Assembly (NCBI GenBank): GCA_964433975.1
Contig: CAYSSS010000002.1
Span: 34,441 to 98,440, forward strand
Length of the DNA stretch: 64,000 bases
Direction: 5' to 3'
Origin: an uncultured Planctomycetia bacterium
GTDB taxonomy: Bacteria > Omnitrophota > Gorgyraeia > 2-01-FULL-45-10
This document shows, piece by piece, positions 3,001-42,425 of the stretch (position 1 is the first letter of the stretch; each line of letters starts with the position of its first letter). The translations under genes and the position numbers were made by a program. Under the pieces are notes generated by a model. The model was not told the DNA's origin. It saw only the letters and a list, made by a program, of their open reading frames with translations, and did not search any database.

Positions 3001-6000
3001 TGAAGAGGCCGGCACCGATAAGAAATTGGGAGCCATTGATAACGAGATAAATGATCTTATAGAGGAAGGCGCAAGTATAAGCAACCAATTGGATAATCTT
3101 GACAAGGCAAAGGCTAACGCTGAAAAGGTGATAAAAGAAATTGAAGACGCCGCAAGGGCAGCGCTTGATAAAGAAATAGAACAGCTAAGAGCGGAAAAGG
3201 AGCAATTTGATTCTGTAAAGGCAAGAGAGGATGCCGAGATTAAATTTGCCGAGGCACAGAATGAAAGGCCGGCTCTGGAACGACGCATGGGTGAAATAAC
3301 AAAGAGGGTGTTTGCGCTTCAGGCCAAAGTGAGTGAAGTAAGCGCCGAAAGAGATAAAGTCAGCAAGGAATTAGACGGTGTAGAGAAAGGGCTAAGGGCG
3401 ATCTCAGATCAACAGAATAAACTCGCAGCTCAGGCTAAAGAGATGCAGGGTATGGAGGAATATTATTCAGGCAAAGCGCTTGAGGCGGAGGGCAAATACA
3501 ATGAAGCCATTGAAAGATATAATGATTGCCTGAAGAAACTCAGCGAGGACAGGAAGAGAGACCGTATGGCGGCGATGCTGGGTATAGTGTCCTGCCATGA
3601 AAAGGCAAAAGATTTTTCTAAGGCGCATCTCACGCGCGGCCGTGCGTTAGCTCTAGGAGTGGTCATAGAGTTCGTAAGCATACCGGATCTTGCTAATATA
3701 GACAAGACGATAGCTGAGGCAGGGTCGGCATATGATAAGACCGTAGCGATGAGAAGGAAGATAGGACTTTTGAAGAGCATGATAGAGGATCCTGTAAATG
3801 CAGCAAGAAAAGAATTGCTGCAATCGGCTTTATATGGTACGTATGCAACTCTCATAGAAGTGATCAAGGGTAAAGGTAATGAAGCGGCAGAAGACAGGAC
3901 GATAGCCGAAATGAAAAATAGGCAGAGCGAGAAGAAACGCGAGCTTGCTAAAGAGAGCGCCAAGCAAAAAGATTATAGGGATTGGTGGATGAGTGTTGCA
4001 GATGACGATAAGCTTAGGGCCGATGCGGAGTTCGCAGAAAGCGAATGGCGCAAGGGCATCAAAAAACTTGAGGAAGAGATAACAGGTCTTGAGGCCGAAC
4101 TGAAGAAGCTCGAAACTGAAGCGGCGAAGAGGATGAATAGAAACACAAAAGAGATACGCGAAGCAGAGCTTGAACAGGAAAGTCTTTTGAATTCAATTGT
4201 TTTAAAAGAATTACGTGCCGCTGTCATTGCCGATTCACAGAATATAGAAGCTCGCCTTGAATTAGCGGATACCTATAGCAAGGCGAGGAACGTCAAAGAA
4301 GCGGCGAGGCAGTATCTCGCGGTTCTTGCGCGCGGTGAGAAGGCAGGCGAAGAGAACTTGAAGAAGGCGTATGACGGACTTGTGAACTTGCTTGAAAATA
4401 ATGTTCTAGAGCAGGCAATGGCGGAAGAACTTGTGAAAGCACTCTTCAAAGATGATTCAATTGTAATCCGTGAAAATGCTCAGGGCAATCTTGTAATAAA
4501 AGCGCTCAAGAAGATGGCTATAAAAGGAGTCGATATTGACGGTTTAATAAGCGCGGAGTCTGACAAGAGGAAGAATGCCCTGCCGGCGGATGCCGACGAG
4601 TCCGATCTCGAAACGATGAGAAAACAATCAATCCTTGACGAGATGACGGCCTCGCTTACCGGTAAAGATGAGTCATTCGAAGCAAAATTCGCCGCGGCCA
4701 TGGCCGGCAAAGATGATATATCAAAGATGAACGCATTGGTAGAGCTCATAAATAAATACGGTTTTGATACGGCGGAAGGAATAATTGCCCTGAACGGCCT
4801 CTTGGGTGTCGTCGAATCGGTCGCTATGACCGCGGCGCCGACCCGCGGACCTCCGGATATAATAAAAGAGATGATACGCCTACTTATTCCAACCACTACA
4901 GATCATGCCATGCGAGAGGCGCAGGACGCTATTCGGAATTTGAAGCATAGAGGCGCGGTAGTAGATCTGCTCAATAACATACTTATCAGAGAATCAAAAT
5001 TCATCGGAGAAAAGGACAACCTCACAAGGATATTTGCCATCATAGATGCAAACGATAGGCTTACGCTAGAAGAGGCCGTCTCGCTGAAGATCGATCTACT
5101 CAAGAAAGAATATGTGCTGCGCCCATCAGTTGAAATCTATATACAGATAGCAGATCTGTATAATGACATTGGCCAGAGCGACAAGGCAATCAAATATCTC
5201 GAAAAAGCCCTAGCGTATGACAAGAATTCCAAAGAGGCTTGTCTGGAACTTGCGAAGATCTACCTTGCAAAAGGCGATATTCAGAAGGCGCAGGACATGG
5301 CCATGAAGGCCCTGGAATTAGATGCCAAGTTCGTCGACGCCCATCTCATTATAGGCAGGATCCGGATGAATGAAGCCAGATACAGAGATGCGCTTGGCTC
5401 ATATAAGACAGCGCTAGAGGCGGACCCGAAGAATAAAGAGGCGCAGGACGCCATTGACAATATCTACATATTGTCAGGTGAGGGGAAGCCGGATGTTGAT
5501 TTCTACCTCACTCTTGGAGATCGCTATATAGAGGAAGGCCAGTTTGAGGCGGCAAGGGAATGCTTCTTAAAGGTACTGGAGAATAAGCCGCAAATAGGGG
5601 ATAAAGCGAGAAAAGAGAGAAAGTCTATATTAAGGGCCTATAAAGAGAAAGAGGCGCGCGCATATTACGGCCTCGCGAGAACATATGAAGCTATAGGTGT
5701 TTTTGACCTGGCAGTCATTAACTACGACATGGCGATTAAGTCGGGTCTTGAAACTGCAGACGTGTACAGGAGATTGGCGGATAGCCTGCAGAAACAGGGT
5801 AATCCGGGCTGGAGAATATCGCGCAGAATAAAGTCATTATACGTCAAGGCGCTTAAGTTAGAGAAAGATGACGCCGGAACCATAGAGAGCCGCGCGAAAG
5901 CTCTTGAATCATCCGGTAAGAAAGAAAGCGCCGTAAAAGAATATATGAAAGCCGCGGACATTTACAAGAAAGCCGGAAAACACGATGAAGCCATGAGGGT

Positions 6001-9000
6001 TCATGAAATAGTCCTTGCCATAGATCCGAACAATAAGGAAGCTATTATAGGCAGGATAGATGCATGTATTTCTAAAGATGACCTTGAGACGGCAGAGGGA
6101 TTAGTAAAGGATAAGGAAAACCTATTAAAAGCATTCCAGGAAGAGCTCGCTAAACAATCCGGAAATGCAGCGCCGTTATTAACAGAGATTAGGACCATGC
6201 TTGCCACATTCATTAAGTCACCGATGAAGACAGGCACCAACGATCGTCTGAAAGATCTGAAGAGCAAAGTTGAAGAGCTTGTTGGTAAAGGAATACTTAC
6301 CGCAGATATGGTCGGCAGAATTCAAGAATTACAGGAAATGGCGGAAGAAATTACGAAGTCCGGTGTCAATTTAACCAGCCCGTACTCTTTGGACCTCATA
6401 AGAGAGATGAAGAAACTCGCAAGGTCCATACGCCAAGAGATAGCCGATGCTGCCGGCGTTGATATAACGACATCTCTTGAAGCGGCAAAAGAAGCCTTTA
6501 GGGATAAAGGCATGTTAAGTATAGATGAAGTCTTCGGGCTTCACATGCGTCTGGCTCAAGCCTATATAGCACAAGGGGATATCACGAATGCCCAACGGCA
6601 TATTAAAGCAGCGGAAGCTATAAACTTCGACGAGAAACTTGAACAAGACAGGGCACAGGATATAAAGGCATTGAGTGACAAGATCAAAGGTATCGTTGAC
6701 AAGCGTGATAACAAGCGCGATGCTGAAAAATATGCGAGGAAAGCCGATAAGCTGATCAAAGACGCTGGCAAGTCGATAGCGGATGAAACAAGGCTGGCTG
6801 ATGTAATTACAGATCTCGTCGAAGTGGCACGCCTGTATGAAGATGCTCTAGCAATGGACGGCAGGATTAATTATGCGGCCATGAAGGCGATGGAAAAGAT
6901 AGCCGCATTATTGGAAGAAGCCTTGATGAAGATAGCTGTGATCGAAGCGGAGATGAAGGTTGTTAATCTAACAAGATTAGAGGTTGCAGAATCCGCAAAG
7001 ACGCTTAAAGGCGTGATCACTAAGATAGTCGACAGGGCACTATCCATATTTGCCGAGGCTAATAAGATAGCCGATGCCGAAAAGAACCGTTATCTGAAGA
7101 AGTACGCAGCCGTACTATACTCAATAGCAAAAGATATGATAGACAATCTCGAGAGTCTAAATAAAAACCTAAATGTCACTATCGGAGAAGAGCTGAATGG
7201 CAAGATGAGCGAGTTAAGAGCGTATGTGGATGAGGCGGGGCTCAGTAAAGAGTCACCTAAATCAATGATCGACGGTATAAATGAAAAAGCGCTCGCGGCA
7301 GTCAAGAAACCCGCCCCCAAGGTAAAAGACTCAGCTAAAATAAAGAATGTCGAAAAAGAGGCCGCAAATGCAGGCGTAGGAATTGAGCAGGTATTTGAAT
7401 CGATGACATTAAAAGATAGAAAAGGCGCGGCGCATCCTGTCACGGCAAAAGAAGCGAAACGCATGAAGGATCTCGCGTATTCGTTGCCCGAGGAGATTGA
7501 AGGAGAGGTCACACCGGCGAAGCTCTACATTGCGATATCTGAAAACGTGAATGATGCGACTGCCAGGAACATGCTATTAGGCGAATTGGCGGCTAGCAGC
7601 CTCTTTACGGTCAAGGTCGAAGGAGGTATATCGCTCAAGACAGTTGAAAGCACATCATCCAAATACGGCGTCTCCACGGAATATATCTTTATTAATCTCG
7701 TTTTCAGAGATGCCGATGGCACTGCGAAACAGGTGTCTGCGGAGGATGCTAACTTGCTGGCGAAGGTATTTGCTAAGATACAATCGGTTAATCCGGAGTT
7801 GCTGAGGTTTATCAGCATCGGAAAGTTCTACGGATTTGTGACAGCAAATATAACAACTGCTCTTAAGATTGCCGACAATGATAAAGAGTTAGGTAATGCC
7901 CTGGGTATTTCGGAAGAAGTTGTGATATTAACAGCTATAGCTCATGTTGAAAAAGTGGCACAAGCCGAACAGGCCCGCGCTGAGAAACTTGCGAAAGAAG
8001 AACAGGCAAGAGTTGAAGCAGAGCGCAAAACAGCGGAAGAAGCTGTTGTAGAAGCGAAGAAGATCGCCGCAAGAGCAGCTGCCAGCGCTAAGAGAAAAAC
8101 TACTATAGCGGAGAAGAAGAGAATAAAAGACGAGGAAGAAGCGCGCAAGAAGGCCGAAGAGAGGGCGATCGCCGAAGTAGCAGCCGAGCAGGCAAGATTG
8201 GATTCATTAAGACGTGCTGCTGAAGAAGAAGCTGCCAGAATGGCCGAAGAGACAGCAATCGCCGAGCAGGCAAGATTGGATGCGTTAATACAAGCTGCTA
8301 AGGAAACACGGCAAAGAGAAGAGGCTGAACGCAAGGTGAAAGTTGCAGAGGCATTAGGCGTGGTACAAGCCAAGCTTGCTAAGCGGGAAGCTGAAGAGAA
8401 GGCGGCCGGAGAGGCCGAAAGACAGGCTGAGGCGCAAAGGGCAACTCAAGCCAGGGCCAAGGCAGAAGAAAAAGAAGAGGCAAAACCGGCAGTAGAATTG
8501 ACGCCGGAAGAAGCCAATCAGTTATTCAGGGCCCTCTCCCGGACTCCCGAAGAAGAAAAAAAGATGCTCAGGGACGTTGAGGAGCAGGCAAGGACAATAG
8601 AGATGATGTTGTTGCGGATTCCGGAACTTGTAAAAAGCAGCCAAGCCGACGCCAGAGAAAATTTTGAAAAAGCATTGGATTTATTAAAGCGATTGATAAA
8701 TAACGTAGACAAAAACTTCGTTCTTCAGGATGAAATAACATCTAAAGCTGAAATGATCGTGCATGATCTGAAAGTACTGGCTTCGATACAGCAGCAGCTC
8801 GTGCCTGCAGAATTAAAGAAGCCCAAGTTCCCGAGTTTTGAGGGTATGCCTACATCTACTCTAAGCTTTAATGGAGCGGCAGGGGTTGTATGGTTCTTCA
8901 GGCAGACGGCCTACTGGTTCAGAGTAGCTATTGGTAAGATACAGACAGCGATTGCCGAGAGGAAAGCAAGGCGGCAAGCCGTCAGAACCAAAGAAGCCGC

Positions 9001-11020
9001 GGTTTCCGTCGGAAAAGCGCAGGCGCCGGCCCGTACGGAAGAAGAGATAATTGATATAATGGTCAAGCAGGGTGAGGGGTGGACGATTGAAAGCCGCGCC
9101 GGAGAGGAAAAGTATAATATCATAAAAATGAGAGTAGTAGCCCATGAGCTGAGGGTGGCGTGGAATAATCCTCTCGGTCAATATGTGCAGGCGGCAATAG
9201 AGCTAGAGAAATCAGGAAACGCGCCTGATGCACAGCGTAAATTAAAAGAGATGCGCGGCAATGCGAAGAAGTTTTACGAAAATGAGGACTTCCTGTCCCT
9301 CGACTTCTATGCAATAGCGGATGCAATAAAAGATAGGATTGACTCGATAAAGGAAAATCCGGCCGCAATAGAACTCTTGAAGAATGAACGCAGGATGCTG
9401 AGCGATGCTGCCACAGAGCTACTAAGGGGCATTAATATGGAGGATACCAGCATTATGCCGCTGCGAGGAGTTCAGCCGCCGCTTGCGATGATGAGCGCGG
9501 CGCCGCCGGCCAGCATGGTAGGCATGACGAATATCTTCAAGCCTATAGGAAGACTGCCGACGAAGGCGCGGAACGCCATAGAGGCGGCTTACTACGGTGA
9601 AGAAAGGGTTGATAATGAGGTGGTTGTAAGATACTCCGGAATAGAATATTCAGGCGCGACCCTTAAAGAAGCACTTAAGGGCCTTCCTAAGGAAGTCGCG
9701 GATGCCGTGAGGAAAGAAGCAAAAGGCGCTTACGAAGCCTCTTACGCCATTCTTCAGGGCGGACGGGTAAGTTTAAGCCGCATAGCGGCGTTCGACGTGG
9801 CCGAGGACGGGACGGTAAGGAGCGTGAGTTGCACGGAGGATGTATCATCTGAAGACGGCGTACCGGTTGAGCGCGGCCATCTGCATTTGAGGCCGATCAA
9901 GAGCATGGAAGAGCTACGCGGCGATATGATCGCCATGATGATAAGAAAAGAATCATATGGCAAGTATGTAGATGAACATATATGGCAGATAACGTCCGAC
10001 GGCATTAAAGAAAGCATTCTGAAGCATGAGAACGGTAATTTTGTCCTGTATCAGGACGGAAGACCCTACGCGCCGGATGGTAAAACGTTTGCATTATCTG
10101 CCAACGATGTAATAGGCAAAATGTCGATCAAACAGGCGAGCGAAGGCCTAACGCGGTCAACTGCATGGCAGGTCGGCGCTGTCATCGCTATGCCGTCGGA
10201 GAAGTCGGGTCCGTTTGTAAATAAGGTCCGCGAAACGATAGGCGTGAAATCTGAATTCATATATATAATCAGGCAGATACTCGATGCCTTTGAAAGGGCG
10301 CCGATGAAAGACAGGGTCCCGAAAGATGAAATATACGGTGCCATCGGCCGAATCAGCATGGGTGACGGAAGCGCGTTCCATAATCTGGCGTTGTCATTGC
10401 GAACGGCAGGTGCCTTCAAAGGTGACTGCGCCACATTCATAGATCTGCGCAGCGTGAAGGGCTTCAATCTGAATGATATGATACAGGCGGTTAAAAATAT
10501 GGCTCGCGGCGCGGGTGCTGGGTCTCCGCTCAAAATAGGGATCGTTGTAGATACTAAAGTCGACCCAATAAAAGGTGTGGATATTATCAGTGATAATACG
10601 GGCCGAAGCGCATTTGATGTCGTCGGAGAATATGCTCGTATGAAGGGCATAGATACTCAAAACATTTCAATCGGCGTACCTGAAAACGATGAAAATATTG
10701 CCGCAGCAGAATCTTATATCAGAACCAATCTTAAGTCAGCGTCCAGCATATTGATCGCAAATGCAGACGGACTCAATAAAGCCGAAGATAAAGCCGCGAT
10801 ACCGGCACTCAATATCATAAATCTACTCGGTAAGCTTGCGACCGCGCAGGAACTTAATGTAATGACCATAGGCTGCAGTACAGAAAACGTTGGTAAGTTC
10901 GCATCACTGATGCAGCAGTTGAATGGTATACTCAGACTGATCGTCATAGCCAAAGAAGATATTGGAAGAAGGGTTAAAGAGTTCATCGGTGCCATGCAGG
11001 CCACCGCCCGTTCGTTGTAA
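2..11020 (+). CDS. Giant (>=3,672 aa) TPR/coiled-coil protein, 5'-truncated by the window edge; ends with the C-terminal domain and tail shared by the giant proteins
   Basis: The frame is uninterrupted from position 2 to TAA 11018-11020. The track starts it at GTG 8, but no in-frame stop lies upstream and no signal peptide or N-module is visible, so the true start is probably upstream of the window. TM hairpin at ~2344-2475 (IAIGVVKFGIPIVIGLVVSVCVF / GWALAFAVPGVIM). Textbook TPR units at 5126-6090. Long E/K/A-rich heptad-like stretches. C-terminal tail GILRLIVIAKEDIGRRVKEFIGAMQATARSL. Confidence 0.88.
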   Translation, partial: RKVQSAKTAELLGKLKDTEPTKDILTGIDEILGVPDISGFEITKQLQEKFGLLYDEDSIGALLNTASGVLSLNSSEFRQRLIRSVTDMLARRCIDSQIESIREDFYKKTENMMRFGNMSKKTIIKAAEAEARNAMGVIRNVAVTAQGFEKYVQEQIGIAKDTAIKIEYYENAKSEAYTKLQAARGAGDRTVELEQLERIAECYQELKTLDPSNVDYYDSQIRYFSQSISVLRKELGRSDSGVETISPIVKPSGKKKTGLLTEIREEVLGPQRAYVARTVSSQARRISAQEVAEMMARAEGNAAVMSEAVDLQDGSAAEFGLDGTMVLRCREEQIAASLLKAKKDGKLGKPIVCLPPDDDPAITSARCQKIREELSQMSQETLSGLGSSRVVLIGFSQSEPGTAAASGKLFVMHLGYSQTDPENEFNRALMGLADAEDSSGAGITRLIKESAGKEKGVVEIDGYKFGFADTDDGIRVIRGNITEDEELVLGQSNKNVAGFVKSVGLHIDINGKITLGDRQEGLLSASDFINEMKVKGFIKGVPAYRDYSKGFSGFLSRILDAIGSMRKKIVDNITGADKKHRETVKDFIYTWRGLPQAFDRKALVAERESLRSQANKLTGDAKNKKNERIAAIDDILVRAEEVRGLMRDLRGKDEAKRTAAAAKLVEMAKKLGDPQLDALLAEFGDEIIKGLKPVADGKVSMPAGTALRTEEINFVLAEAFAVKGEAGLRRGLTYYNRAASSAAMNGNKKVEGDARVERAKIYSQGNPVKRIIDMAAGYKAGKIAIGVVKFGIPIVIGLVVSVCVFHLPIGWALAFAVPGVIMKAFKLLQGSQKDAIQKAIARGDYKAVQKYQKMESVKNTFAKWTGFSFVKTLINGLISIPQTRAAEKEAIKAAMLGNEEAIVLMFDKPRDLKTRAANAMKSLTGAHAAEKNALFGAMTTGDAKALEAIANDSTRSAAVRAFAYRRLAAGFGEKRTALVKEREAAEARRRDLEARRNKLNEEAGTDKKLGAIDNEINDLIEEGASISNQLDNLDKAKANAEKVIKEIEDAARAALDKEIEQLRAEKEQFDSVKAREDAEIKFAEAQNERPALERRMGEITKRVFALQAKVSEVSAERDKVSKELDGVEKGLRAISDQQNKLAAQAKEMQGMEEYYSGKALEAEGKYNEAIERYNDCLKKLSEDRKRDRMAAMLGIVSCHEKAKDFSKAHLTRGRALALGVVIEFVSIPDLANIDKTIAEAGSAYDKTVAMRRKIGLLKSMIEDPVNAARKELLQSALYGTYATLIEVIKGKGNEAAEDRTIAEMKNRQSEKKRELAKESAKQKDYRDWWMSVADDDKLRADAEFAESEWRKGIKKLEEEITGLEAELKKLETEAAKRMNRNTKEIREAELEQESLLNSIVLKELRAAVIADSQNIEARLELADTYSKARNVKEAARQYLAVLARGEKAGEENLKKAYDGLVNLLENNVLEQAMAEELVKALFKDDSIVIRENAQGNLVIKALKKMAIKGVDIDGLISAESDKRKNALPADADESDLETMRKQSILDEMTASLTGKDESFEAKFAAAMAGKDDISKMNALVELINKYGFDTAEGIIALNGLLGVVESVAMTAAPTRGPPDIIKEMIRLLIPTTTDHAMREAQDAIRNLKHRGAVVDLLNNILIRESKFIGEKDNLTRIFAIIDANDRLTLEEAVSLKIDLLKKEYVLRPSVEIYIQIADLYNDIGQSDKAIKYLEKALAYDKNSKEACLELAKIYLAKGDIQKAQDMAMKALELDAKFVDAHLIIGRIRMNEARYRDALGSYKTALEADPKNKEAQDAIDNIYILSGEGKPDVDFYLTLGDRYIEEGQFEAARECFLKVLENKPQIGDKARKERKSILRAYKEKEARAYYGLARTYEAIGVFDLAVINYDMAIKSGLETADVYRRLADSLQKQGNPGWRISRRIKSLYVKALKLEKDDAGTIESRAKALESSGKKESAVKEYMKAADIYKKAGKHDEAMRVHEIVLAIDPNNKEAIIGRIDACISKDDLETAEGLVKDKENLLKAFQEELAKQSGNAAPLLTEIRTMLATFIKSPMKTGTNDRLKDLKSKVEELVGKGILTADMVGRIQELQEMAEEITKSGVNLTSPYSLDLIREMKKLARSIRQEIADAAGVDITTSLEAAKEAFRDKGMLSIDEVFGLHMRLAQAYIAQGDITNAQRHIKAAEAINFDEKLEQDRAQDIKALSDKIKGIVDKRDNKRDAEKYARKADKLIKDAGKSIADETRLADVITDLVEVARLYEDALAMDGRINYAAMKAMEKIAALLEEALMKIAVIEAEMKVVNLTRLEVAESAKTLKGVITKIVDRALSIFAEANKIADAEKNRYLKKYAAVLYSIAKDMIDNLESLNKNLNVTIGEELNGKMSELRAYVDEAGLSKESPKSMIDGINEKALAAVKKPAPKVKDSAKIKNVEKEAANAGVGIEQVFESMTLKDRKGAAHPVTAKEAKRMKDLAYSLPEEIEGEVTPAKLYIAISENVNDATARNMLLGELAASSLFTVKVEGGISLKTVESTSSKYGVSTEYIFINLVFRDADGTAKQVSAEDANLLAKVFAKIQSVNPELLRFISIGKFYGFVTANITTALKIADNDKELGNALGISEEVVILTAIAHVEKVAQAEQARAEKLAKEEQARVEAERKTAEEAVVEAKKIAARAAASAKRKTTIAEKKRIKDEEEARKKAEERAIAEVAAEQARLDSLRRAAEEEAARMAEETAIAEQARLDALIQAAKETRQREEAERKVKVAEALGVVQAKLAKREAEEKAAGEAERQAEAQRATQARAKAEEKEEAKPAVELTPEEANQLFRALSRTPEEEKKMLRDVEEQARTIEMMLLRIPELVKSSQADARENFEKALDLLKRLINNVDKNFVLQDEITSKAEMIVHDLKVLASIQQQLVPAELKKPKFPSFEGMPTSTLSFNGAAGVVWFFRQTAYWFRVAIGKIQTAIAERKARRQAVRTKEAAVSVGKAQAPARTEEEIIDIMVKQGEGWTIESRAGEEKYNIIKMRVVAHELRVAWNNPLGQYVQAAIELEKSGNAPDAQRKLKEMRGNAKKFYENEDFLSLDFYAIADAIKDRIDSIKENPAAIELLKNERRMLSDAATELLRGINMEDTSIMPLRGVQPPLAMMSAAPPASMVGMTNIFKPIGRLPTKARNAIEAAYYGEERVDNEVVVRYSGIEYSGATLKEALKGLPKEVADAVRKEAKGAYEASYAILQGGRVSLSRIAAFDVAEDGTVRSVSCTEDVSSEDGVPVERGHLHLRPIKSMEELRGDMIAMMIRKESYGKYVDEHIWQITSDGIKESILKHENGNFVLYQDGRPYAPDGKTFALSANDVIGKMSIKQASEGLTRSTAWQVGAVIAMPSEKSGPFVNKVRETIGVKSEFIYIIRQILDAFERAPMKDRVPKDEIYGAIGRISMGDGSAFHNLALSLRTAGAFKGDCATFIDLRSVKGFNLNDMIQAVKNMARGAGAGSPLKIGIVVDTKVDPIKGVDIISDNTGRSAFDVVGEYARMKGIDTQNISIGVPENDENIAAAESYIRTNLKSASSILIANADGLNKAEDKAAIPALNIINLLGKLATAQELNVMTIGCSTENVGKFASLMQQLNGILRLIVIAKEDIGRRVKEFIGAMQATARSL
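5126..6090 (+). other. TPR repeat array (domain of the 2-11020 protein)
   Basis: Successive 34-residue units fit the TPR consensus, e.g. IADLYNDIGQSDKAIKYLEKALAYDKNSKEA, LAKIYLAKGDIQKAQDMAMKALELDAKFVDA, GRIRMNEARYRDALGSYKTALEADPKNKEA and ADIYKKAGKHDEAMRVHEIVLAIDPNNKEA. Confidence 0.8.
7945..8490 (+). repeat. E/A/K/R-rich low-complexity coiled-coil tract with an internal duplicated unit
   Basis: The translation is almost entirely E, A, K, R and Q (AEQARAEKLAKEEQARVEAERKTAEEAVVEAKK...). The unit AIAE(VAA)EQARLD(S/A)L is duplicated: DNA gcgatcgccgaag...gagcaggcaagattggattc (from 8167) versus gcaatcgccgagcaggcaagattggatgc (from 8257). Confidence 0.6.
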
Positions 11021-11038
11021 AATAAAGCAAAAATTTCT

Positions 11039-11050
11039 AGCCCCGGCCTG
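11039..11050 (+). repeat. Left copy of the 12-bp direct repeat AGCCCCGGCCTG bracketing the Bro-N cassette
   Basis: Exact 12-mer at 11039-11050, 19 nt after the stop of the first giant gene. It occurs again at 12407-12418. The flanks are loosely similar (gaaaacGGTgAttTTgC versus agaatGGTaAaaaTTaGC). Confidence 0.55.
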
Positions 11051-11067
11051 GAAAACGGTGATTTTGC

Positions 11068-11095
11068 TTGACAAAAATATGCTGTATGGTATATT
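11068..11095 (+). promoter_or_regulatory. Sigma70-type extended -10 promoter for the Bro-N gene
   Basis: TTGACA (11068-11073), 16-nt spacer ending in TGg (11087-11089), then TATATT (11090-11095). The ATG lies about 95 nt downstream. Confidence 0.55.
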
Positions 11096-11188
11096 GAGTT
11101 TGCGTATATATTCCCGTTTGGATCTTTAAAAAAGATTTAAGCGGGCTTTTTATTTTATACGATACCATAATCAAAGGAGGAAAATACT

Positions 11189-12058
11189 ATGAAACAGTCG
11201 CAATCGCTTGTTCTTTTTCATCAAAACACGGTCCGCCGCTATTGGGATGAAGGTAAGGAGCTTTGGTATTTTTCCGTCGTGGATGTGGTGCAGATATTGA
11301 CTGATTCTACAATCCCAAGACGATATTGGAGCGATCTTAAAACGAAACTTCAGGCGGAAGGAAGTGAAGTGTACGAAAAAATCGTACAGTTGAAAATGAC
11401 TGCTCCAGATGGAAAACAAAGAGAAACCGACTGTTTATCCACTGAAGATTTGTTTCGTGTCATTCAATCCATCCCTTCACCTAAAGCGGAACCGTTTAAG
11501 CTGTGGTTGGCAAGAGTTGGATACGAGCGCATACAGGAGATAGAAGATCCGGAGCTGGCGACTAAAAGAACGAGGGCTTTATACAAAGCCAAAGGTTATA
11601 GTAATAATTGGATTGAGAAGAGAATGCGGGGTATCGCTATACGAGAAGAATTAACCGATGAATGGCAGAAAAGAGATGTCAAAGGACAGATCGAATATGC
11701 CATTTTGACATCCGAAATTTCCAAAGCCGCTTTTGGCGTAACGCCAAATGAATACAAAAAATTGAAAGGTCTGGCCAGAGAAAACTTGCGTGATCATATG
11801 AATGATTTAGAGCTTATTTTCTCCATGCTCGGCGAAGCTGCAACCACAGAAATAACACGCAATAAGAATGCGCGAGGATTTAAACAGAGTAAAAAAGCGG
11901 CACGCGAAGGTGGCCAAGTAGCAGGCAGGGCGAGAAAAGACCTTGAATCAAAAACCGGTAAGAAAGTCATTTCGCAGGAAAACTACCTCCCAAAACCACC
12001 TGTAAAATTAATTAAAATTGAGAAAAGTGATGAAGGACAGAAAAAAGAAACAAAATAA
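11189..12058 (+). CDS. Bro-N domain / DNA-damage-inducible protein D (DinD)-like protein
   Basis: 290-codon ORF. ATG 11189 sits 8 nt after the SD AAAGGAGG (11173-11180). The N-terminal half (VRRYWDEGKELWYFSVVDVVQILTDS...YWSDLKTKLQAEGSE...LKMTAPDGKQRETDC...SIPSPKAEPFKLWLARVGYERIQE) matches the Bro-N/DinD family pattern as I remember it. The C-terminus is Lys-rich. Confidence 0.85.
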   Translation: MKQSQSLVLFHQNTVRRYWDEGKELWYFSVVDVVQILTDSTIPRRYWSDLKTKLQAEGSEVYEKIVQLKMTAPDGKQRETDCLSTEDLFRVIQSIPSPKAEPFKLWLARVGYERIQEIEDPELATKRTRALYKAKGYSNNWIEKRMRGIAIREELTDEWQKRDVKGQIEYAILTSEISKAAFGVTPNEYKKLKGLARENLRDHMNDLELIFSMLGEAATTEITRNKNARGFKQSKKAAREGGQVAGRARKDLESKTGKKVISQENYLPKPPVKLIKIEKSDEGQKKETK

Positions 12059-12296
12059 TAAACGCTATTTTTATTCAGTCGTGGAGGAGGGAATACAAAA
12101 TCCCGAATACTTTGGCTATAGAGGGGGTCGGATAGAAATAACCGATACTAAGTCTGATTCGTCCTACCCAATAGCGGAGGCAAGATTTCTTATCCCAAAA
12201 GAATTTATAGTTGGCTTCAGGGAAACATTCGATTTTAAAGAAAGTAATTTACCAATAATAATAAATTGGGGAAAAGAATTATACGAAAACAGGTGA
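12018..12296 (+). CDS. Hypothetical small protein (doubtful); a more likely start is ATG 12030
   Basis: 92-codon ORF that overlaps the 3' end of the Bro-N gene. The track start is TTG 12018 and an ATG follows at 12030. No recognisable motif and no clear SD. Kept only because it is the sole + strand ORF in an otherwise unassigned 580-nt gap. Confidence 0.3.
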   Translation: MRKVMKDRKKKQNNKRYFYSVVEEGIQNPEYFGYRGGRIEITDTKSDSSYPIAEARFLIPKEFIVGFRETFDFKESNLPIIINWGKELYENR

Positions 12297-12406
12297 CATG
12301 GAATCGACCAATGTATAACCATCTTCCGACCCCAGCTCGAAAGTACGATCCACCCCCGCGGTAGACGTATCCCATAGATGAATCCCGCTCGTTGTAACCG
12401 ATTCCC

Positions 12407-12418
12407 AGCCCCGGCCTG
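12407..12418 (+). repeat. Right copy of the 12-bp direct repeat AGCCCCGGCCTG
   Basis: Exact copy of 11039-11050, 1,368 bp downstream, in the non-coding spacer before the promoter of the 12636 gene. Confidence 0.55.
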
Positions 12419-12552
12419 AGAATGGTAAAAATTAGCAACAACAATAGGTTAGTTCTTCCATAGCAGGACACTCCATAACTAAAATCACATAACTAATTGT
12501 ATTACAAGTACTTATGTTTTTGTTAAGCAACAAAAAAGGCAATGTATACACA

Positions 12553-12580
12553 TTGACATATACATTATAAGTGGTATACT
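12553..12580 (+). promoter_or_regulatory. Sigma70-type extended -10 promoter for the 12636-30438 operon
   Basis: TTGACA (12553-12558), 16-nt spacer ending in TGg (12572-12574), then TATACT (12575-12580). It is followed by an A/C-rich leader of about 50 nt (aaacactaaacaaaagatagataaacaaaacaaagga) up to GTG 12636. Confidence 0.6.
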
Positions 12581-12635
12581 CATCTGTAAACACTAAACAA
12601 AAGATAGATAAACAAAACAAAGGACATCCCCGATA

Positions 12636-14500
12636 GTGAATGCTTGGCGCAAACAGACAAAAGGATCAGCCACAAGAGAAGAGCTTGGGACGAAGCCGCT
12701 TATCATGGACTTGCAAAGTCCTGGAAATAAAAAGTGGCTTAGGGCCGTAGCTCTTTTTTTAGTTATAGCGTTTGTTAATCAGGATATAATCTGGGCGCAG
12801 GGCGGGGATCCCGTTTGGGCTAAGGGCGCGAACGGGTCTTTTAATTTAAAGCCGAAGGTGAACGGCCATGGCGACGTATCGATTCCCAAGGATATAGCCG
12901 TTACAAAGGACGTCTACAGCGGCGCCAACGGCAAGACGATCATAAATATCCAGGATGCCCACGCGTCGCTTACCGCGCAGGAGTCCATAGTATCCATATT
13001 AGACTCATTAGTAACCAATTATGACCTTAAATTGGTGGCTATAGAGGGCTCTTCAGGCTATATAGACACATCACTCTTAAAGACATTCCCGGACGAATCC
13101 ATCCGTAAAGCATCGGCCAAGTACCTGATGAAGAAGGGCAAGCTCTCTGCAGGCGAGTTCTTTTCCGTAACTTCGGACAAGGAGATCGCCTTATATGGCA
13201 TAGAGTCAAAGAAGCTCTATACCGAAAACGTAGAGCAGTTCAAGAAGATCTACGAGATAAACGGGGCTATATCGAAGGATATAAGAGGCCTTACAGCCGC
13301 GTTCGAGGATCTCAAGGACAAGATATATTCCACAGATCTGAAGCAATTGGAGAGGAACTCTGTCCTACATAAGGACGGCAAGATCGGCTTCTCAGACCGC
13401 TGGGAGTTCGTCTACGCACTGGCCTCAAAATACAACATAAGCTATAAGAAGTACGAAAATCTCGCAAAGCTAGTCGAATCCCTGAAATACGAAAAGAAGA
13501 TAAATTTTAACAAGGCCACAAAAGAGCGTGACGCCCTGATCGATGCCTTAAGCAAGAAGGTCGTGAAGCAGGACCTCGAGCAGATGGTCCTGAAGAGCGT
13601 ATCGTTCAAGATGAATAAGCTGTCGCAGGGCGAATATTACCTCTACCTGCAGGAGCTGGCATCGCGCTACGGCATAGATCCCGTGCCGTACGGGCACCTC
13701 ATAAACTACACCAACTACATAGCTCTGTATGAGTCCATAGACATAATGGCGATCTTTGAGGAGGTCAAGGCCTATGAGGATGAGATAGAGGCGAAATTAT
13801 TCACCAATGAATACCAGAAGAAACTGCATGATTTCTCGGGCTTTGTCGATCTGGTATCGAACCTTTATGAGCTGAAGCTATCCAACGGCGACCTCGAGGC
13901 CTTTGTGGTAGATATGAATAAATTCAACGCTGCCGATATCGCGCAGTTCATCAAGGCCGCCTCGCTGAAGTACGGGGTCACCATAAACGGCGACTACGAC
14001 CTTGGCGCTATCTTCGACAATATTCCGACCGCACTCTCTTTCTACAGGACAGCGGAAGAGAGAAATACAGCTATCCTCGCCAATACCATAAACCGCATGG
14101 ATAGAGAGGGCCAGAACGTGGCTGCGCTCGTTACGGGAGGTTTCCACACCAAAGGCCTCACGGAAATATTGAAGCAGAAAGAGACCTCATACATCGTAAT
14201 ACTGCCTAAGTTCGACGCCTCCAAAGGCGACAGGCCGTACGTGGCGATACTCACCAACAAAAAGGACCCTTACGAGGACCTGATCCGAAGCGGCAAGTGC
14301 CAGATATTGGCGGAAGAGTACCTGGGCGAAGGGATATCGGATCCCATCATGACAGAGGCGTTCATCGTAGATGTCATAATGACGAACCTGGCTGTGGCCG
14401 CCATAGAGAAGAAGAATGTCGACAGCGTGGCGCAATTATGGATCGACAGCTATGCCAGGGCCTATGATAACCTCAAAACAAAAGGCATAATCAAAGAGCC
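12636..14500 (+). other. Shared N-terminal module, copy A (extended signal peptide plus ~560-aa domain; tentatively Tiki/ChaN/TraB-like)
   Basis: IINIQDAHASLTAQESIVSILDSLVTNYDLKLVAIEGSSGYIDTSLLKTFPDE ... ALVTGGFHTKGLTEILKQKETSYIVILPKFDASKGDRPYVAILTNKKDPYEDL. It is colinear with copies at 42426-44340 (very close) and 30566-32150 (more divergent). Confidence 0.75.
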
Positions 14501-17500
14501 GCCTGCCGGCGTTCAAGAGAAGCCCTTTGTGTGGACATATGGATACAGGACAGTCGAAGTACTTAAAGACGGAACTATCGAGAACAGGCCATCTAGCGCG
14601 GGAGAGGTGGAGGAATATAAGAATGCGTACCGCAAAGAGGGCGCCGCCAAAGGCAAAACGGTTTCTTTCGAAGAGAGGCTTGCGAGGTTAGAGACCACCA
14701 CCAAGGAGATGCTCGCAGAATCGATAGCCGGATCTATCAACAAAGCAAAGGCCAAGAAAAATTTTGACGAGGAATTTGAAAGAGTCGCAAACCGAAAGGG
14801 CGCGTACAAGGCCCTTACCGACAAAGAAAAATCCGAGATCAAGAACGATGTCCGCGGCAGGATGGACAGGTACTTGGCGACGAACAGCAATGTGGCCCCA
14901 ACCGATAATCCATTAACACCAAAATACATGGCTGGCGCAGTTAGAGCTATTGTACAAAATCATCTTGGCCCAGTTACGGAGGATATGGCTAGGCTTGGAC
15001 CAGAAGCGCTCCCCGCTCCTGTTATGCCGAGGATTCCAACTGCGAGAGAGGTTAACTATGGGGTCAGCCGTATTCCTTCGGGCGAGCCTATACCTTACGA
15101 AAGAGCGATAGCGAGCATAGCAGAAGTAGTAAGAAGCTCCAGAGAGCCCGTCATAGTAGTCATAGATGGAAAGACTGATAAAAGCGATCTGAGCCAAAAA
15201 GCGGGCAAGACTTATACCGCAAAGAGCATGATGGATGACGAACTATATGGCCCCAAAGAAGAAAAGATTCACATTTTCGGGGATAGTTTTGCGAAGACGT
15301 TTAATAAGGTAGCAGCCGGCAAGAACATAGAACAGGCTATTGAGGTACCTTACCAGAAGATCATAGATGACAAGGATTCAATAAATAAACGCACTTTATA
15401 CGAAGAGTACATAGGCCGTTATTTTGCCCACCACCTCAACGAATTGTTAGTTGAAGGGAGACGCGTCATAGTCTTTGACGAAGCGTCAGCCATCTTTAAT
15501 TTCAGGATGGCAATGCAGTATCATAAAGAGCTTCCTAGCAAGATAAGAGTGGTCAATGTGTATATTGAGGCTGAGAATGGACAGCGCACTGTGCGATCCG
15601 ACCAGGGATTGTGGGGTGGCGATATTAATCCGATCAAAGAAATTTCACCTAAGCCGCCCGCCCTCGAAGAATTAGCGATAAACTTAAGCGAAGTCTTTAT
15701 TTTAAGAGCAGGAGAAGCCGCAAATACTAATATCGAAGGTATTAAATTCGAAGCCGGTATGACGGACCTGCCCGATGCTATCTTCGAAGCTGCTCAAGGA
15801 GAGGGTGCCGATGAGATTGAGATAATATTGAGCAAAGATTTAAAGACTGCAAGGATCAAGTTATTTGCTTCCGGCAAAGAAATTGCAAATCCGCTGCCAT
15901 CATTTAATTCAGACTGTTTCGGTGGATTAGTTGGCAGCTGTTATATGCATGTAAAACCGATGGACCCCGGTGGCTCTTGGGAAAAAGATTTTAGCAAGGA
16001 ATTCATTAGCAGGAAAGGAACGCCGCTTTTAGTGGCACACGAAGTAAAGGAAGGCGAGCACTATCTAAGGATTTCTATACCTAAAAAGCCGGCCGCGCCG
16101 GAAGCGCCAAAGGCGCCGGAGGGCCTCGGCGTCATACCTAGCATGAGAAATTGGTTTAGCGATGGCTTATTCAGAAAATTATTCGACAAAAAATATGACA
16201 CGATGATGACTATTTATGATGTGCTCCTAGGGCCCTTATTCGAAGAAGCGGGATTCAGGGGTATTCCTATAAGCATTGCAGTGCTGATGCAGACCGGCGG
16301 CTTTAATAACGCGTTTATCTTTGCAAGTCTTGCTGTGGCTCTTATAGTCACATTCGCAGCATTTGTGTTGCTGCACCCGAAAGAAGCGAGGGGCCCACCC
16401 GTACTCATAGGAATAATGGCCTCTCTTACTCCCTTCCTATTTTTATCGATGGGCATGCCTCTCTTGTATTCACTGCTTGCCACCTTTGGAATACACATAA
16501 TCATAAACAGTGTTGCACTTATACAAACAGACAGAGATAAATTCAAAACGCGCGCTATGATTGACGAGCTCACGAAGTTAGGAAATAGGTGGGCAGGAGT
16601 AGAAGCTCTAAATACGGAGATAGGGCATGCTTCCAGGAACGAAGGCCGGCGACTATCATTCATTATCATGGATATAGACAATTTCAAAGAGGTAAATGAT
16701 GCCTACGGCCACCAGGTCGGCGATGATGTGTTAACGCAAGTTGCCGATATTGTAAAAAAACGTATTAGGCAAGAAGATACGGTGTTCAGGTATGGCGGTG
16801 AAGAGATCGCGGTAATAGTGCCAGAGTCCGATGTCGATGGAGCAAGCGCCCTTGCATCAGATATTAGGCTTGCTATAGAGAACGGGACGAACCCGATAAA
16901 AGTCACGGTAAGCATAGGGGTTTCACAATATCGCAGAGATCCTAGTAGGGATTCTGTGAGAGCCTATGACATAGAGGATGAAAAGAGGGTCACAGAAAGA
17001 GAGATCAAGGGAGTTATTGAAAGGGCGGATAAGGCGCTTTATTTAGCGAAACACGAGGGAAAAAATACGATTCGCAATGAAAGAGACCGGCCGGGCATAC
17101 CGGCGCCGGGGAAGCTTGCTATGCCGGCAATGGGTTGTCCATCCGATGAGGCAAGTTTTGTCAGTGCAGGATATCTCCCGGTGCTAGGCGGTATAGCGGT
17201 CGCCGCGATAATCGTAGCAAGCGCCGATATCAATACGCTCAATTTTGTGCTGTCGGGCCTTTCCGGATTAGCGGCATTTTACATACTACGCGCGGTAAAA
17301 CTTAAGTTCACGGCATGGTCCGGCGCTATCCTCGCAACCTTATTGGCGGCAATGTTATCGGGAATACTTCCTTTAGGTCCGCCTTCGCGCGTCACGCCCG
17401 AGCAACTTACGCTTCCGGCAGTTACAGCCGCAGCGCCCATTCAACAGGCGATGCCGATTACAACCGCTCCTGTCGCAGCGACGCAGCCAGCGCCTGTTGC

Positions 17501-30438: not shown

Positions 30439-30468
30439 TTAAAAAACAAAAAAGTTTGCTTATTCTCG

Positions 30469-30496
30469 TTGACATTGTCCTATTGTTTGATATACT
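30469..30496 (+). promoter_or_regulatory. Sigma70-type extended -10 promoter for the 30566 gene
   Basis: TTGACA (30469-30474), 16-nt spacer ending in TGa (30488-30490), then TATACT (30491-30496). It is followed by an A/C-rich leader (aacaaacgtaagcaaacaaaaag...) and the SD GGAGG (30555-30559). Confidence 0.6.
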
Positions 30497-30565
30497 TATT
30501 AACAAACGTAAGCAAACAAAAAGTAAGTAATTGCAACTCACAGCCAAGACTTACGGAGGTAACGA

Positions 30566-41098: not shown

Positions 41099-41122
41099 CA
41101 TATCCATAAAAGGGGTCAGGCC

Positions 41123-41168
41123 CGCCTGCCAGCAAGCAAATGACTTCAGGCGGGCAGGCGCTTTTTAT
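41123..41168 (+). terminator. Candidate intrinsic terminator after the 30566 gene
   Basis: A perfect 8-bp GC-rich stem, CGCCTGCC (41123-41130) with GGCAGGCG (41153-41160), is followed directly by CTTTTTAT (41161-41168). The 22-nt loop is large, which lowers confidence. Confidence 0.5.
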
Positions 41169-42199: not shown

Positions 42200-42333
42200 T
42201 ATTTCAGTTTTTCAACATATGTCAAGACCTGCTTTTCTTCTCGCATGATCAAACACCACTCTAAAAACTGTAACTCATTATAAGCATTAGTGTTGTAAAA
42301 ATGTTAAAACACAAAAAAGTCAGTTGTCGCCTA

Positions 42334-42362: not shown

Positions 42363-42425
42363 TCAGGTGTAATAGGAACAAAAAGGCAGTTCTTAACACA
42401 ACATTTTTTGAGGGTGATATAAAAA

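What the first reader, a model, noticed from the sequence alone, without database searches (positions are those of the whole stretch)
11039..12418. Bro-N/DinD-like cassette bracketed by 12-bp direct repeats between two giant genes
The exact 12-mer AGCCCCGGCCTG occurs at 11039-11050, 19 nt after the stop of giant 1, and again at 12407-12418, with loosely similar extensions. These are the only two non-coding gaps on either side of a 1.37-kb segment. That segment contains its own promoter, a Bro-N/DinD-type gene (a family common in phages and mobile DNA), a doubtful 92-codon ORF and ~120 nt of unassigned sequence. An exact 12-mer shared by two gaps of ~170 and ~340 nt is unlikely by chance: roughly 170 x 340 / 4^12, about 0.003. 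Deleting one repeat copy and the intervening DNA would join giant 1 directly to the giant 2 promoter region.

Inference: the cassette was inserted with a target-site or att-core duplication. No integrase or transposase is present, so the mechanism is unknown.
Basis: partly seen in the sequence, partly recalled or inferred. Interest (0 to 1): 0.55.

Follow-up and report, generated by a model that had tools for sequence, protein, structure and literature searches.

The report
Foreign two-gene insert between giant genes
A 1.3-kb piece of foreign, phage-type DNA carrying a candidate anti-phage gene and a small unknown gene sits between two giant genes of an Omnitrophota bacterium, bracketed by a duplicated copy of the first giant gene's tail; this is an ordinary kind of horizontal gene insertion.

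Summary
AGCCCCGGCCTG occurs exactly twice in the window (11039-50, 12407-18). The repeat is longer than reported: giant 1's last four codons plus stop, a variable spacer, the 12-mer and about 11 loosely matching bases (11007-11061 versus 12384-12429).

The bracketed DNA is foreign and mosaic:
- Module A (11062-12021) has a promoter, a leader hairpin and a Bro-N/DinD-like gene that matches PADLOC PDC-S13.
- Module B (12022-12299) is the "doubtful" ORF. It is a real, conserved 88-aa gene found in phage-like contexts.
- Then come 84 unassigned bases.

Each module turns up elsewhere in a different context. GC3 is 0.34-0.39 against 0.52 for the giants. None of 65 related Omnitrophota loci carries the insert. 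Deleting 11051-12418 leaves a normal 248-nt junction.

There is no recombinase and there are no terminal inverted repeats. Two phage lineages show filled versus unoccupied sites where a DinD homolog is flanked by a duplicated terminator. Flanking repeats are equally common around neighbouring genes, so they are not DinD-specific.

Best reading: recombination-mediated insertion that left the short target sequence on both sides (moron- or PeSL-like). A relic of a deleted giant paralog is not excluded. No empty site was found for this locus. Modest interest.

The parts
2..11020 (+). Giant gene 1. It is 5537 aa in the full contig and is cut by the window start. It ends ...ATARSL*.
11007..11061 (+). 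Left repeat copy: the last 4 codons and stop of giant 1, an 18-nt spacer, the 12-mer, and about 11 weakly matching bases. It ends where module A begins.
   Evidence: (D9, D14); the boundary with module A comes
11039..11050 (+). Exact 12-mer AGCCCCGGCCTG, copy 1.
11062..12021 (+). Module A: a self-contained Bro-N/DinD-like gene unit. Its left edge is where homology to L068, L069 and L002 starts. Its right edge is where homology to the orf88 module of L170 starts.
11068..11095 (+). Sigma-70-type promoter: TTGACA, 16 nt, TG-extended TATATT (11 of 12 matches). It is conserved in L002, L068 and L069.
11113..11155 (+). 15-16-bp hairpin plus a T-run, lying between the promoter and the ribosome-binding site (a PeSL-like promoter and stem-loop leader). 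It is kept in three variants through one-sided, wobble-compatible changes.
11189..12058 (+). Bro-N/DinD-like gene, 289 aa. It matches PADLOC candidate defence family PDC-S13 and phrog_15286. Its last 11 codons or so are encoded by module B.
12022..12299 (+). Module B: the small conserved gene orf88 (CDS 12030-12296). The family has no Pfam or PDB match, and its homologs lie in phage-like arrays of small ORFs.
12300..12383 (.). 84 unassigned bases. There is no Rfam hit, no similarity to giant C-termini, and no homology to L170.
12384..12429 (+). Right repeat copy (non-coding): CCCGCTCGTTGTAA, a 9-nt spacer, the 12-mer, and a weak extension.
   Evidence: it is identical in the sibling-sample contig L070
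12407..12418 (+). Exact 12-mer, copy 2.
12553..12580 (+). Giant 2 promoter: TTGACA, 16 nt, TG-extended TATACT.
12636..24902 (+). Giant gene 2 (4088 aa).
41090..41165 (+). The end of giant 4 has the same layout: TCGTTGTAA, 20 nt, then AGGCCCGCCTG. Here the GC-rich block is the 5' arm of a strong intrinsic terminator.

Best explanation
The stretch from about 11062 to 12383 is horizontally acquired DNA of phage or defence-island type. It was inserted into the short spacer that normally separates two tandem giant genes of an Omnitrophota chromosome.

It is a mosaic of two independently travelling single-gene modules plus 84 unexplained bases:
- Module A is a promoter, a stem-loop and a ribosome-binding site in front of a Bro-N/DinD-like gene of the PDC-S13 candidate defence family.
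- Module B is a small conserved phage-type ORF, fused onto the last codons of the first gene.

The insert is bracketed by an imperfect direct repeat of about 45-55 nt made of host sequence: the tail of giant 1, the 12-mer, and a few more bases.

I infer that the repeat is the footprint of the insertion route. A single crossover (Campbell-type) between incoming, probably circular, DNA and the giant 1 gene-end sequence would leave that sequence on both sides. The exact 12-mer would be the longest identical stretch, and so the likely crossover point. This is what is described for promoter and stem-loop (PeSL) cassettes and their mini-circles in T4-type phages, and for integrase-less att-flanked elements.

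Shown: the foreign, mosaic nature of the insert and the reality of the repeat. Inferred: how the repeat arose, which enzyme did it (host or phage homologous recombination, or a site-specific recombinase acting in trans), and whether the unit can still excise.
For: **The repeat is real and target-derived.**

**Module boundaries come from independent copies.**
- L068 and L069 (other context: a GIY-YIG gene, a DinD pseudogene, an AAA_14 gene) match the window only over 11062-11561, at 86%.
- L170 matches only 12022-12299, at 80%. Its upstream gene is an AAA_14/DUF4143 gene.
- L002, from a sibling sample, starts at about 11063-11065. It is 100% identical from about 11250 onward but only about 80% identical before that, which indicates allelic recombination inside the module.

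**Foreign composition.** GC3 is 0.388 for DinD and 0.341 for orf88. Windows of the giant genes average 0.524, sd 0.064, which puts DinD in the 1st percentile. The other small native genes run from 0.49 to 0.59.

**The gene family moves widely.**
- Homologs are about 70% identical across many phyla, including archaea.
- Copies sit between cas7 and cas4, between hsdM and hsdS, and in viral contigs.
- The gene matches PADLOC PDC-S13 at E 1.6e-125.

**The insert is absent from relatives.** No DinD was found in any of the 65 related Omnitrophota loci. The ones with direct giant-to-giant junctions have gaps of 123-301 nt. Deleting 11051-12418 gives a 248-nt gap.

**There is precedent for repeat-bracketed insertion.**
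- Five of 45 non-redundant DinD-homolog loci have flanking direct repeats of 18-102 nt at 79-97% identity. Each has a different, locus-specific sequence, present exactly twice.
- Two filled-versus-unoccupied comparisons exist. L158 versus L168: left flank 99.7% identical, an 844-nt insert, a repeat of about 22 nt. L166 versus L163: the same hairpin is duplicated around DinD in L166, while L163 has a single hairpin followed by a different Bro-N gene.

**The left repeat ends at the independently defined left edge of module A (11062).**

**PeSL architecture and mini-circles** are described in PMC2839356.
Against: - No empty site or circular junction was found for this locus. The only close relatives (L070, L002) carry the same insert.
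- The two copies differ by a 9-nt indel and several substitutions concentrated in the spacer. The coding-end block and the 12-mer are conserved. That pattern looks like divergence under selection between paralogous gene ends, not a fresh duplication.
- Giant 4's end has the same layout, so the motif may simply mark giant-gene ends.
- Flanking repeats are as frequent around neighbouring control genes (6 of 75, counting one CRISPR-array artefact) as around DinD homologs (5 of 45). The precedent is therefore general and not specific to this gene.
- In the same systematic test the window's own repeat scored only z = 2.3, because the score penalises gaps.
- The model needs the incoming DNA to have carried a look-alike of the giant 1 tail, which implies earlier residence at a homologous site.
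- No recombinase is in the window.
Confidence: 0.5

Rival explanations
1. Relic of a lost giant gene. A further tandem giant paralog once lay between the foreign genes and giant 2. It was deleted except for its last 14 coding bases and its 3' flank. The two 'repeats' are then just the conserved ends of two neighbouring paralogs, and the foreign genes entered without any duplication.
For: - Giant genes here are tandem paralogs with a conserved C-terminal tail (...A-x-[SA]-[AVL]*).
- Giant 4's end shows the same layout of TCGTTGTAA, spacer and GC-rich block.
- The conservation pattern (coding end and 12-mer kept, spacer diverged) is what selection on two functional gene ends would give.
- From copy 2's stop-like TAA (12395-12397) to the giant 2 start is 238 nt, which is also a normal junction length.
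Against: - Nothing upstream of 12384 resembles a giant C-terminus at the protein or profile level. The RSL reading frame is closed by a TAG only 11 codons upstream.
- This reading needs an extra gene and a deletion whose breakpoint happens to lie 14 nt before a stop codon.
- Copy 2 matches giant 1's end better than giant 4's end: 13 of 14 plus 12 of 12, against 9 plus 10 of 12.
- The left repeat ends at the module A boundary, which this model does not predict.
Confidence: 0.2
2. Site-specific integration by a tyrosine or serine recombinase encoded elsewhere (a CIME- or satellite-like, integrase-less element). The repeats are attL and attR, with the 12-mer as the core. The element's attP mimics the 3' end of the target gene.
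For: An identical core flanked by imperfect similarity, positioned at the 3' end of a gene and restoring that gene's last codons, is the classic signature of elements that integrate into gene 3' ends (established knowledge). There is an exact 12-nt core, with homeologous flanks on both sides.
Against: - There is no recombinase gene in the 64-kb window; the ORFs are the giants, an HD-domain protein and two small proteins.
- The insert is a mosaic of modules that occur separately in other contexts without this att-like sequence.
- The 12-mer is absent from 169 other fetched loci, apart from one chance hit inside cas1.
- Flanking repeats at other DinD loci all differ in sequence and length, which argues against a dedicated site.
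Confidence: 0.12
3. Classical transposition with a staggered-cut target-site duplication.
For: Direct repeats of host sequence bracket a foreign segment. Related giant-to-giant gaps do attract transposable elements: IS200/RAYT-like and DDE transposase genes are found in L026, L049 and L059.
Against: - There is no transposase.
- There are no terminal inverted repeats at the repeat-insert junctions. The best inverted pair (11064-80 with 12514-30, 15 of 17) does not sit at the junctions and is at chance level, with about 1 expected by my estimate.
- The duplication is 45-55 nt and imperfect, far longer than known transposase staggers.
- The interior is a mosaic.
Confidence: 0.03
4. The repeat is a functional or structural host motif (a regulator site or REP-like element), or a coincidence, and has nothing to do with how the genes arrived.
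For: - Only about six intergenic gaps exist in the window, and three of them carry a version of the motif.
- The gapped alignment score alone gives only P about 0.012.
Against: - The exact 12-mer has P about 0.007, and there is also a collinear 13-of-14 block.
- Neither copy folds into a hairpin.
- The distances to the downstream promoters differ (18 versus 135 nt).
- The motif is absent from about 65 related Omnitrophota loci.
Confidence: 0.1

Closest known systems
Phage 'morons' (independent promoter, gene and terminator units inserted between two genes; Juhala/Hendrix concept, cited from memory)
   Same: A small accessory gene with its own sigma-70 promoter and a stem-loop, dropped into the spacer between two co-oriented resident genes. 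It has atypical base composition and is absent from relatives.
   Different: It lies in a bacterial chromosome between giant genes, not in a phage genome. The stem-loop lies between the promoter and the gene, not after the gene. Two modules are fused. It is flanked by a duplicated host gene end.
PeSL mobile regulatory cassettes of T4-type phages (PMC2839356; PMC4122927)
   Same: The first gap reads: stop codon, AT-rich stretch, strong sigma-70 promoter, stem-loop, Shine-Dalgarno sequence, start codon. That is the composite PeSL layout. In phages, recombination between short repeated intergenic motifs inserts, deletes and circularises single genes, which would leave exactly this kind of imperfect direct repeat.
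   Different: The repeated sequence here is the gene end plus the 12-mer, not the promoter and stem-loop. Only two copies are known. No mini-circle evidence exists. The host is a bacterium.
Integrase-less att-flanked elements (CIMEs) and elements that integrate into gene 3' ends
   Same: An identical core with imperfect flanks, sitting at and restoring the 3' end of a gene. No recombinase lies inside the element.
   Different: No cognate integrase or parent element is known. The element is only 1.3 kb and mosaic. Repeats at other loci of the same gene family are unrelated in sequence.
PADLOC PDC-S13 candidate defence gene, and E. coli DinD
   Same: Full-length match to the PDC-S13 model (E 1.6e-125). 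It has an N-terminal Bro-N domain. Homologs are embedded in type I R-M and type I-C CRISPR-Cas operons.
   Different: It is not an equivalog of E. coli DinD (24 bits against a cut-off of 242). A defence function for PDC-S13 is only a candidate annotation. Nothing was tested here.

Membership tests
Bro-N domain family (Pfam PF02498) | Match to the Bro-N model above its gathering score | tested here: met
   42.8 bits against a cut-off of 25.6, residues 15-108
E. coli DinD equivalog (NCBIfam NF008573) | Whole-protein score above the curated cut-off | tested here: not met
   24.4 bits against a cut-off of 242, and only the C-terminal half aligns
PADLOC PDC-S13 (candidate single-gene defence system) | Full-length match to the PDC-S13 profile | tested here: met
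   E 1.6e-125, residues 1-278 on profile positions 1-278 of 286
PADLOC PDC-S13 (candidate single-gene defence system) | Protection against phage | not testable with these tools
Homologs embedded in R-M and CRISPR operons are only circumstantial support.
Transposon or insertion sequence | Transposase gene inside the element | tested here: not met
   The bracketed segment holds only DinD and orf88, and neither matched a transposase model
Transposon or insertion sequence | Terminal inverted repeats at the ends, next to a short fixed-length duplication | tested here: not met
   There is no inverted repeat at the junctions. The best pair (15 of 17) is elsewhere and at chance level. The duplication is 45-55 nt and imperfect.
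Integrative element with att sites | Direct repeats sharing an identical core at both ends | tested here: met
   A 12-nt exact core with imperfect flanks
Integrative element with att sites | Integrase (tyrosine or serine recombinase) in or next to the element | tested here: not met
   None in the segment or in the 64-kb window. A trans-acting enzyme cannot be excluded.
Integrative element with att sites | Empty site (attB) with one copy in a relative | tested here: inconclusive
   The 65 related loci are too distant (58-70% aa identity) for a base-level comparison. The close relatives L070 and L002 carry the insert.
PeSL-type regulatory cassette | Stop codon, AT-rich stretch, sigma-70 promoter, stem-loop, Shine-Dalgarno sequence and start codon within one intergenic spacer | tested here: met
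   Spacer 11018-11191: promoter 11068-95, hairpin 11113-45, GGAGG at about 11176, ATG at 11189
PeSL-type regulatory cassette | Many repeated copies flanking variable genes; mini-circles formed by recombination between them | tested here: inconclusive
   Only two copies of the repeat are known, and they are not the promoter and stem-loop itself. Circles cannot be tested without reads.
Integron gene cassette | attC hairpin site after a promoter-less ORF, with an IntI integrase nearby | tested here: not met
   The gene has its own promoter. No hairpin lies at or next to either repeat. No integrase is present.

The most novel reading that the evidence does not exclude
Single-gene accessory or defence cassettes, in phages and in bacterial chromosomes alike, spread by a recombinase-light, duplicative route. 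The route copies 20-100 nt of the target's gene end or terminator onto both sides of the insert. This creates excisable mini-circles that reinsert at homologous empty sites. The Omnitrophota insert would then be a chromosomal example of PeSL-like modular shuffling outside T4-type phages.
Probability: 0.15. Interest if true: 0.55.

Novelty: new member of a known kind. Interest (0 to 1): 0.3.

Why it matters
The result shows that the only soft spots in an array of giant genes, the 120-300-nt spacers, do take up foreign DNA. Here that DNA is a candidate anti-phage gene (PDC-S13) with its own promoter and leader, plus an uncharacterised conserved phage ORF.

The result also adds examples, including two filled-versus-unoccupied site pairs in phages, in which a small accessory gene is bracketed by a duplicated piece of the local terminator or gene end. 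That bears on how 'morons' and embedded defence genes get inserted without a dedicated transposase. Beyond that, the locus is an ordinary horizontal acquisition.

Tried and rejected
**Searches for homology or known elements that found nothing**
- Relic coding sequence: tblastn of all giants, and a profile of 15 giant C-termini, against 12059-12420 found nothing.
- RNA elements: no Rfam match at E <= 1 in 10500-13500, and no tRNA in the window.
- Hairpin at the 12-mer: neither copy folds better than shuffled sequence (z = +0.8 and -1.4). The giant 4 analogue, by contrast, is a real terminator.
- GenBank phages: no DNA match to 11021-12635 and no protein match to orf88.

**Searches for close relatives that led nowhere**
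- Giant 1 C-terminus against species-representative genomes: nothing.
- Giant 1 C-terminus against the 5.8-billion protein set: nothing. That search was wasted.

**Ideas tested and dropped**
- Terminal inverted repeats: the best pair (11064-80 with 12514-30, 15 of 17) is what chance gives and is not at the junctions.
- 'Flanking repeats are a special property of the DinD family': rejected after the control on neighbouring genes gave the same rate (6 of 75 against 5 of 45).
- orf88 usually travels with DinD: no. It is absent from all DinD-homolog loci, and DinD is absent from the orf88 loci.
- L170 and L068 are parts of one locus type: no similarity.
- Fold of orf88: the model is confident (pLDDT 82), but no PDB or viral match was better than E 0.06.
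Full report
**1. The observation**

The 12-mer AGCCCCGGCCTG is present at 11039-11050 and 12407-12418 and nowhere else in the window. The first copy begins 19 nt after giant 1's stop codon (TAA, 11018-11020). Both copies lie in the only two non-coding gaps on either side of the small genes: 168 nt and 339 nt.

A first-order Markov simulation gives P about 0.007 for any exact 12-mer shared by the two gaps.

- CCCGTTCGTTGTAA, which is giant 1's codons ...R-S-L plus the stop (11007-11020), recurs as CCCGCTCGTTGTAA at 12384-12397.
- The spacers are 18 and 9 nt.
- Next come ATTTCT/ATTCCC, the 12-mer, and about 11 loosely matching bases.

A gap-penalised local alignment on its own scores only P about 0.012. 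The collinear second block makes coincidence very unlikely; my analytic estimate is about 1e-4 for that block alone. Neither copy forms a hairpin.

**2. What surrounds it**

The window is one long array of co-oriented giant genes:
- giant 1, at least 3672 aa in the window and 5537 aa in the contig
- giant 2, 4088 aa
- an HD-domain protein
- giants of 1643 and 3510 aa
- two small genes
- a giant of more than 7190 aa

The source is an 88.5-kb ENA metagenome contig. Relatives of giant 2's N-terminus are almost all Candidatus Omnitrophota, a phylum already known for giant genes (bioRxiv 10.1101/2023.11.21.568195).

The giants share a conserved C-terminal tail (...A-x-[SA]-[AVL]*). The end of giant 4 has the same nucleotide layout as the repeat: TCGTTGTAA, 20 nt, AGGCCCGCCTG. 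There the GC-rich block is the 5' arm of a strong terminator. Copy 1 is therefore native giant-gene 3' sequence, and the orphan is copy 2.

**3. What lies between the repeats**

(a) *Module A, about 11062-12021.*
- It has a near-consensus sigma-70 promoter (11068-95, with a TG-extended -10 box), a 15-16-bp hairpin with a T-run (11113-55), a GGAGG ribosome-binding site, and a 289-aa gene.
- The protein has a Bro-N domain. It is not an E. coli DinD equivalog. It is a full-length match to PADLOC's candidate defence family PDC-S13 (E 1.6e-125) and to phrog_15286.
- Homologs are about 70% identical across very different phyla, including archaea.
- Homologs sit between cas7 and cas4 of a type I-C CRISPR-Cas operon, between hsdM and hsdS of a type I R-M operon, and in many viral contigs.
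- The left edge of the module is fixed by independent copies. L068 and L069 hold a decayed copy next to a GIY-YIG gene and an AAA_14 gene, and they match the window only over 11062-11561, at 86%. L002, from a sibling sample, begins at about 11063-11065.
- L002 is 100% identical from about 11250 onward but only about 80% identical in the promoter, leader and first 60 coding bases. Alleles of the module therefore recombine.
- The hairpin is kept in all three variants through one-sided, wobble-compatible changes.

(b) *Module B, 12022-12299.*
- The 'doubtful' ORF is real. It is 88 aa from the ATG at 12030 and has 122 cluster representatives at E <= 1e-3.
- A tight family alignment shows the window's copy keeps every invariant residue.
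- There is no Pfam or PDB sequence match. The model is confident (pLDDT 82), but no fold match was found.
- Homologs lie in phage-like runs of small ORFs. Some are fused to P-loop kinase-like domains.
- The closest homolog locus, L170, matches the window only over 12022-12299 (80% nt) and follows an AAA_14/DUF4143 gene, not DinD.
- It follows that the last 11 codons or so of the DinD-like gene are supplied by module B, and the two modules were joined secondarily.

(c) *Bases 12300-12383* match nothing.

**4. Is it foreign?**

Yes, on four counts.
- Composition: GC3 is 0.388 (DinD) and 0.341 (orf88). Same-sized windows of the giants average 0.524, sd 0.064, which places DinD in the 1st percentile. 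The other small native genes run from 0.49 to 0.59.
- Absence from relatives: none of the 65 related Omnitrophota loci carrying a giant 2-type gene start has a DinD homolog.
- Junction length: where one giant directly follows another in those relatives, the spacer is 123-301 nt. Removing 11051-12418 from the window leaves 248 nt.
- Other mobile genes in the same kind of gap: in relatives with larger gaps, the extra DNA holds IS200/RAYT-like genes, a DDE transposase, or toxin-antitoxin-like pairs. These spacers are where mobile DNA lands in such arrays.

**5. How did the repeat arise?**

No recombinase is present, and no terminal inverted repeats sit at the junctions.

To look for precedent I collected 45 non-redundant loci with DinD homologs. 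For each I aligned 400 nt upstream against 600 nt downstream.
- Five loci have strong direct repeats (z > 4.5) of 18-102 nt at 79-97% identity.
- The repeats hug the gene: 25-76 nt before the start codon, or overlapping it in L072, and 1-58 nt after the stop.
- Each has a different sequence, is present exactly twice, and is usually the local terminator.
- Under that gap-penalised score, the window's own repeat reached only z = 2.3.

Two comparisons show insertion directly.
- L158 versus L168: the left flank is 99.7% identical. L158 has an 844-nt DinD insert and a duplication of about 22 nt of a terminator arm that is single in L168.
- L166 versus L163: the same hairpin is duplicated around DinD in L166.

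The control matters. Neighbouring genes in the same loci show such repeats just as often: 6 of 75, one of which is a CRISPR-array artefact, and most of the rest are again duplicated terminators. Repeat bracketing is thus a general trait of accessory genes in variable regions. It is not a DinD speciality.

That is the behaviour described for PeSL cassettes in T4-type phages. There, recombination between short intergenic promoter and stem-loop motifs inserts, deletes and circularises single genes (PMC2839356). The first gap of the window has that PeSL layout: stop codon, AT-rich stretch, promoter, stem-loop, Shine-Dalgarno sequence, start codon.

**6. Verdict on mechanism**

My preferred reading is a single crossover between incoming, probably circular, DNA and the giant 1 gene-end sequence. 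The exact 12-mer would be the crossover region and the diverged flanks would be the homeologous arms. This reading explains:
- the imperfect repeat
- why the repeat includes the gene's last codons
- why the left copy stops at the independently defined edge of module A

I put it at about 0.5. The enzyme is unknown: homologous recombination, or a site-specific recombinase acting in trans.

The main rival, at about 0.2, is that copy 2 is what is left of a deleted paralogous giant gene. The uneven conservation (coding end and 12-mer kept, spacer diverged) and the look-alike at giant 4's end speak for that rival. The lack of any further coding similarity, and the closed reading frame, speak against it.

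A classical transposase duplication is unlikely. A generic host motif cannot be excluded from 64 kb alone. However, the 12-mer is absent from the 65 or so related Omnitrophota loci, and the only other hit is a chance match inside cas1 in an unrelated locus.

**7. Novelty and score**

This is a new example of a known kind of event: a moron-like acquisition of a widely travelling candidate defence gene, with a recombination footprint. The setting between giant genes, the mosaic of two modules, and the uncharacterised orf88 family are minor points of interest. Interest is 0.3.

Noticed in passing
window 12030-12296: orf88 belongs to a well-conserved, unannotated small-protein family. The core motif is KRYFFSVVEE..NP.Y.GYRGGRIEV.D...YEARFLIPEEF..FR..FDFKESD. 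There is no Pfam or PDB match, and the confident AF2 model has no fold match. Some members are fused to P-loop kinase-like N-terminal domains (P0137, P0161) or to zinc-ribbon-like extensions (P0131).
   Followed up: partly
window 11068-11188; L002 1-126; L068 1459-1584: The DinD module places a terminator-like hairpin and T-run between its own strong promoter and the ribosome-binding site. The arrangement is kept in three diverged copies. It could be an attenuator, an insulator against read-through from upstream, or a short RNA of about 50 nt.
   Followed up: partly
L002 versus window 11063-11250: A sibling-sample contig is 100% identical to the window over most of the gene but only about 80% identical in the promoter, leader and first 20 codons or so. 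This is a sharp recombination breakpoint inside the module.
   Followed up: partly
L070 position about 12 (window 12063): The sibling-sample copy lacks one base in the KRYF codons of orf88, which truncates the called protein to 71 aa. This is either decay of orf88 in that strain or an assembly error.
   Followed up: no
window 10990-11020, 24870-24902, 30400-30438, 41060-41098; related loci: All giant proteins here and in related Omnitrophota end in a short conserved tail of small or hydrophobic residues (...ARSL, ...IRSA, ...LAAA, ...LSSAA, ...VSVAA). This could be a sorting or secretion signal.
   Followed up: partly
window 12520-12635, 30440-30565, 42300-42425: Giants 2, 4 and 5 have the same upstream layout: ACAAAAAAG, 10-16 nt, TTGAC(A), 16-17 nt, then a -10 box ending in ATACT. 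Giants 2 and 5 also have clearly paralogous N-termini (...REELG.K.LIMD.QS..NKKW.RAVALFL...).
   Followed up: no
L068 900-960, 1252-1305, 2270-2385: An inverted-repeat element of about 55 nt (GATTGCTTCGTC ... CCTCGCAATGACG) occurs four times in 1.5 kb. It brackets both an 87-aa GIY-YIG gene and the DinD pseudogene, and looks like a REP- or MITE-like family.
   Followed up: no
L026 8898-9539, L049 2241-2858, L059 7959-9798: In related Omnitrophota, the enlarged spacers between tandem giant genes hold IS200/RAYT-like transposase genes, and in L059 also a DDE (rve-type) transposase. I identified these by eye from sequence motifs, not with a profile search.
   Followed up: no
L074-L076 4001-4828; L077/L078 4001-4849: Close homologs (72-77% aa) of the Bro-N/DinD-like gene are embedded inside defence operons: between cas7 and cas4 of a type I-C CRISPR-Cas locus, and between hsdM and hsdS of a type I R-M locus, overlapping hsdS by 4 nt.
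   Followed up: partly
L158/L169 versus L168; L166 versus L162, L163, L164: These are hypervariable spots in gut-type viral contigs. The same terminator hairpin is followed by different cargo genes in different relatives. Where a DinD homolog is present, the hairpin or its 5' arm is duplicated on both sides.
   Followed up: partly
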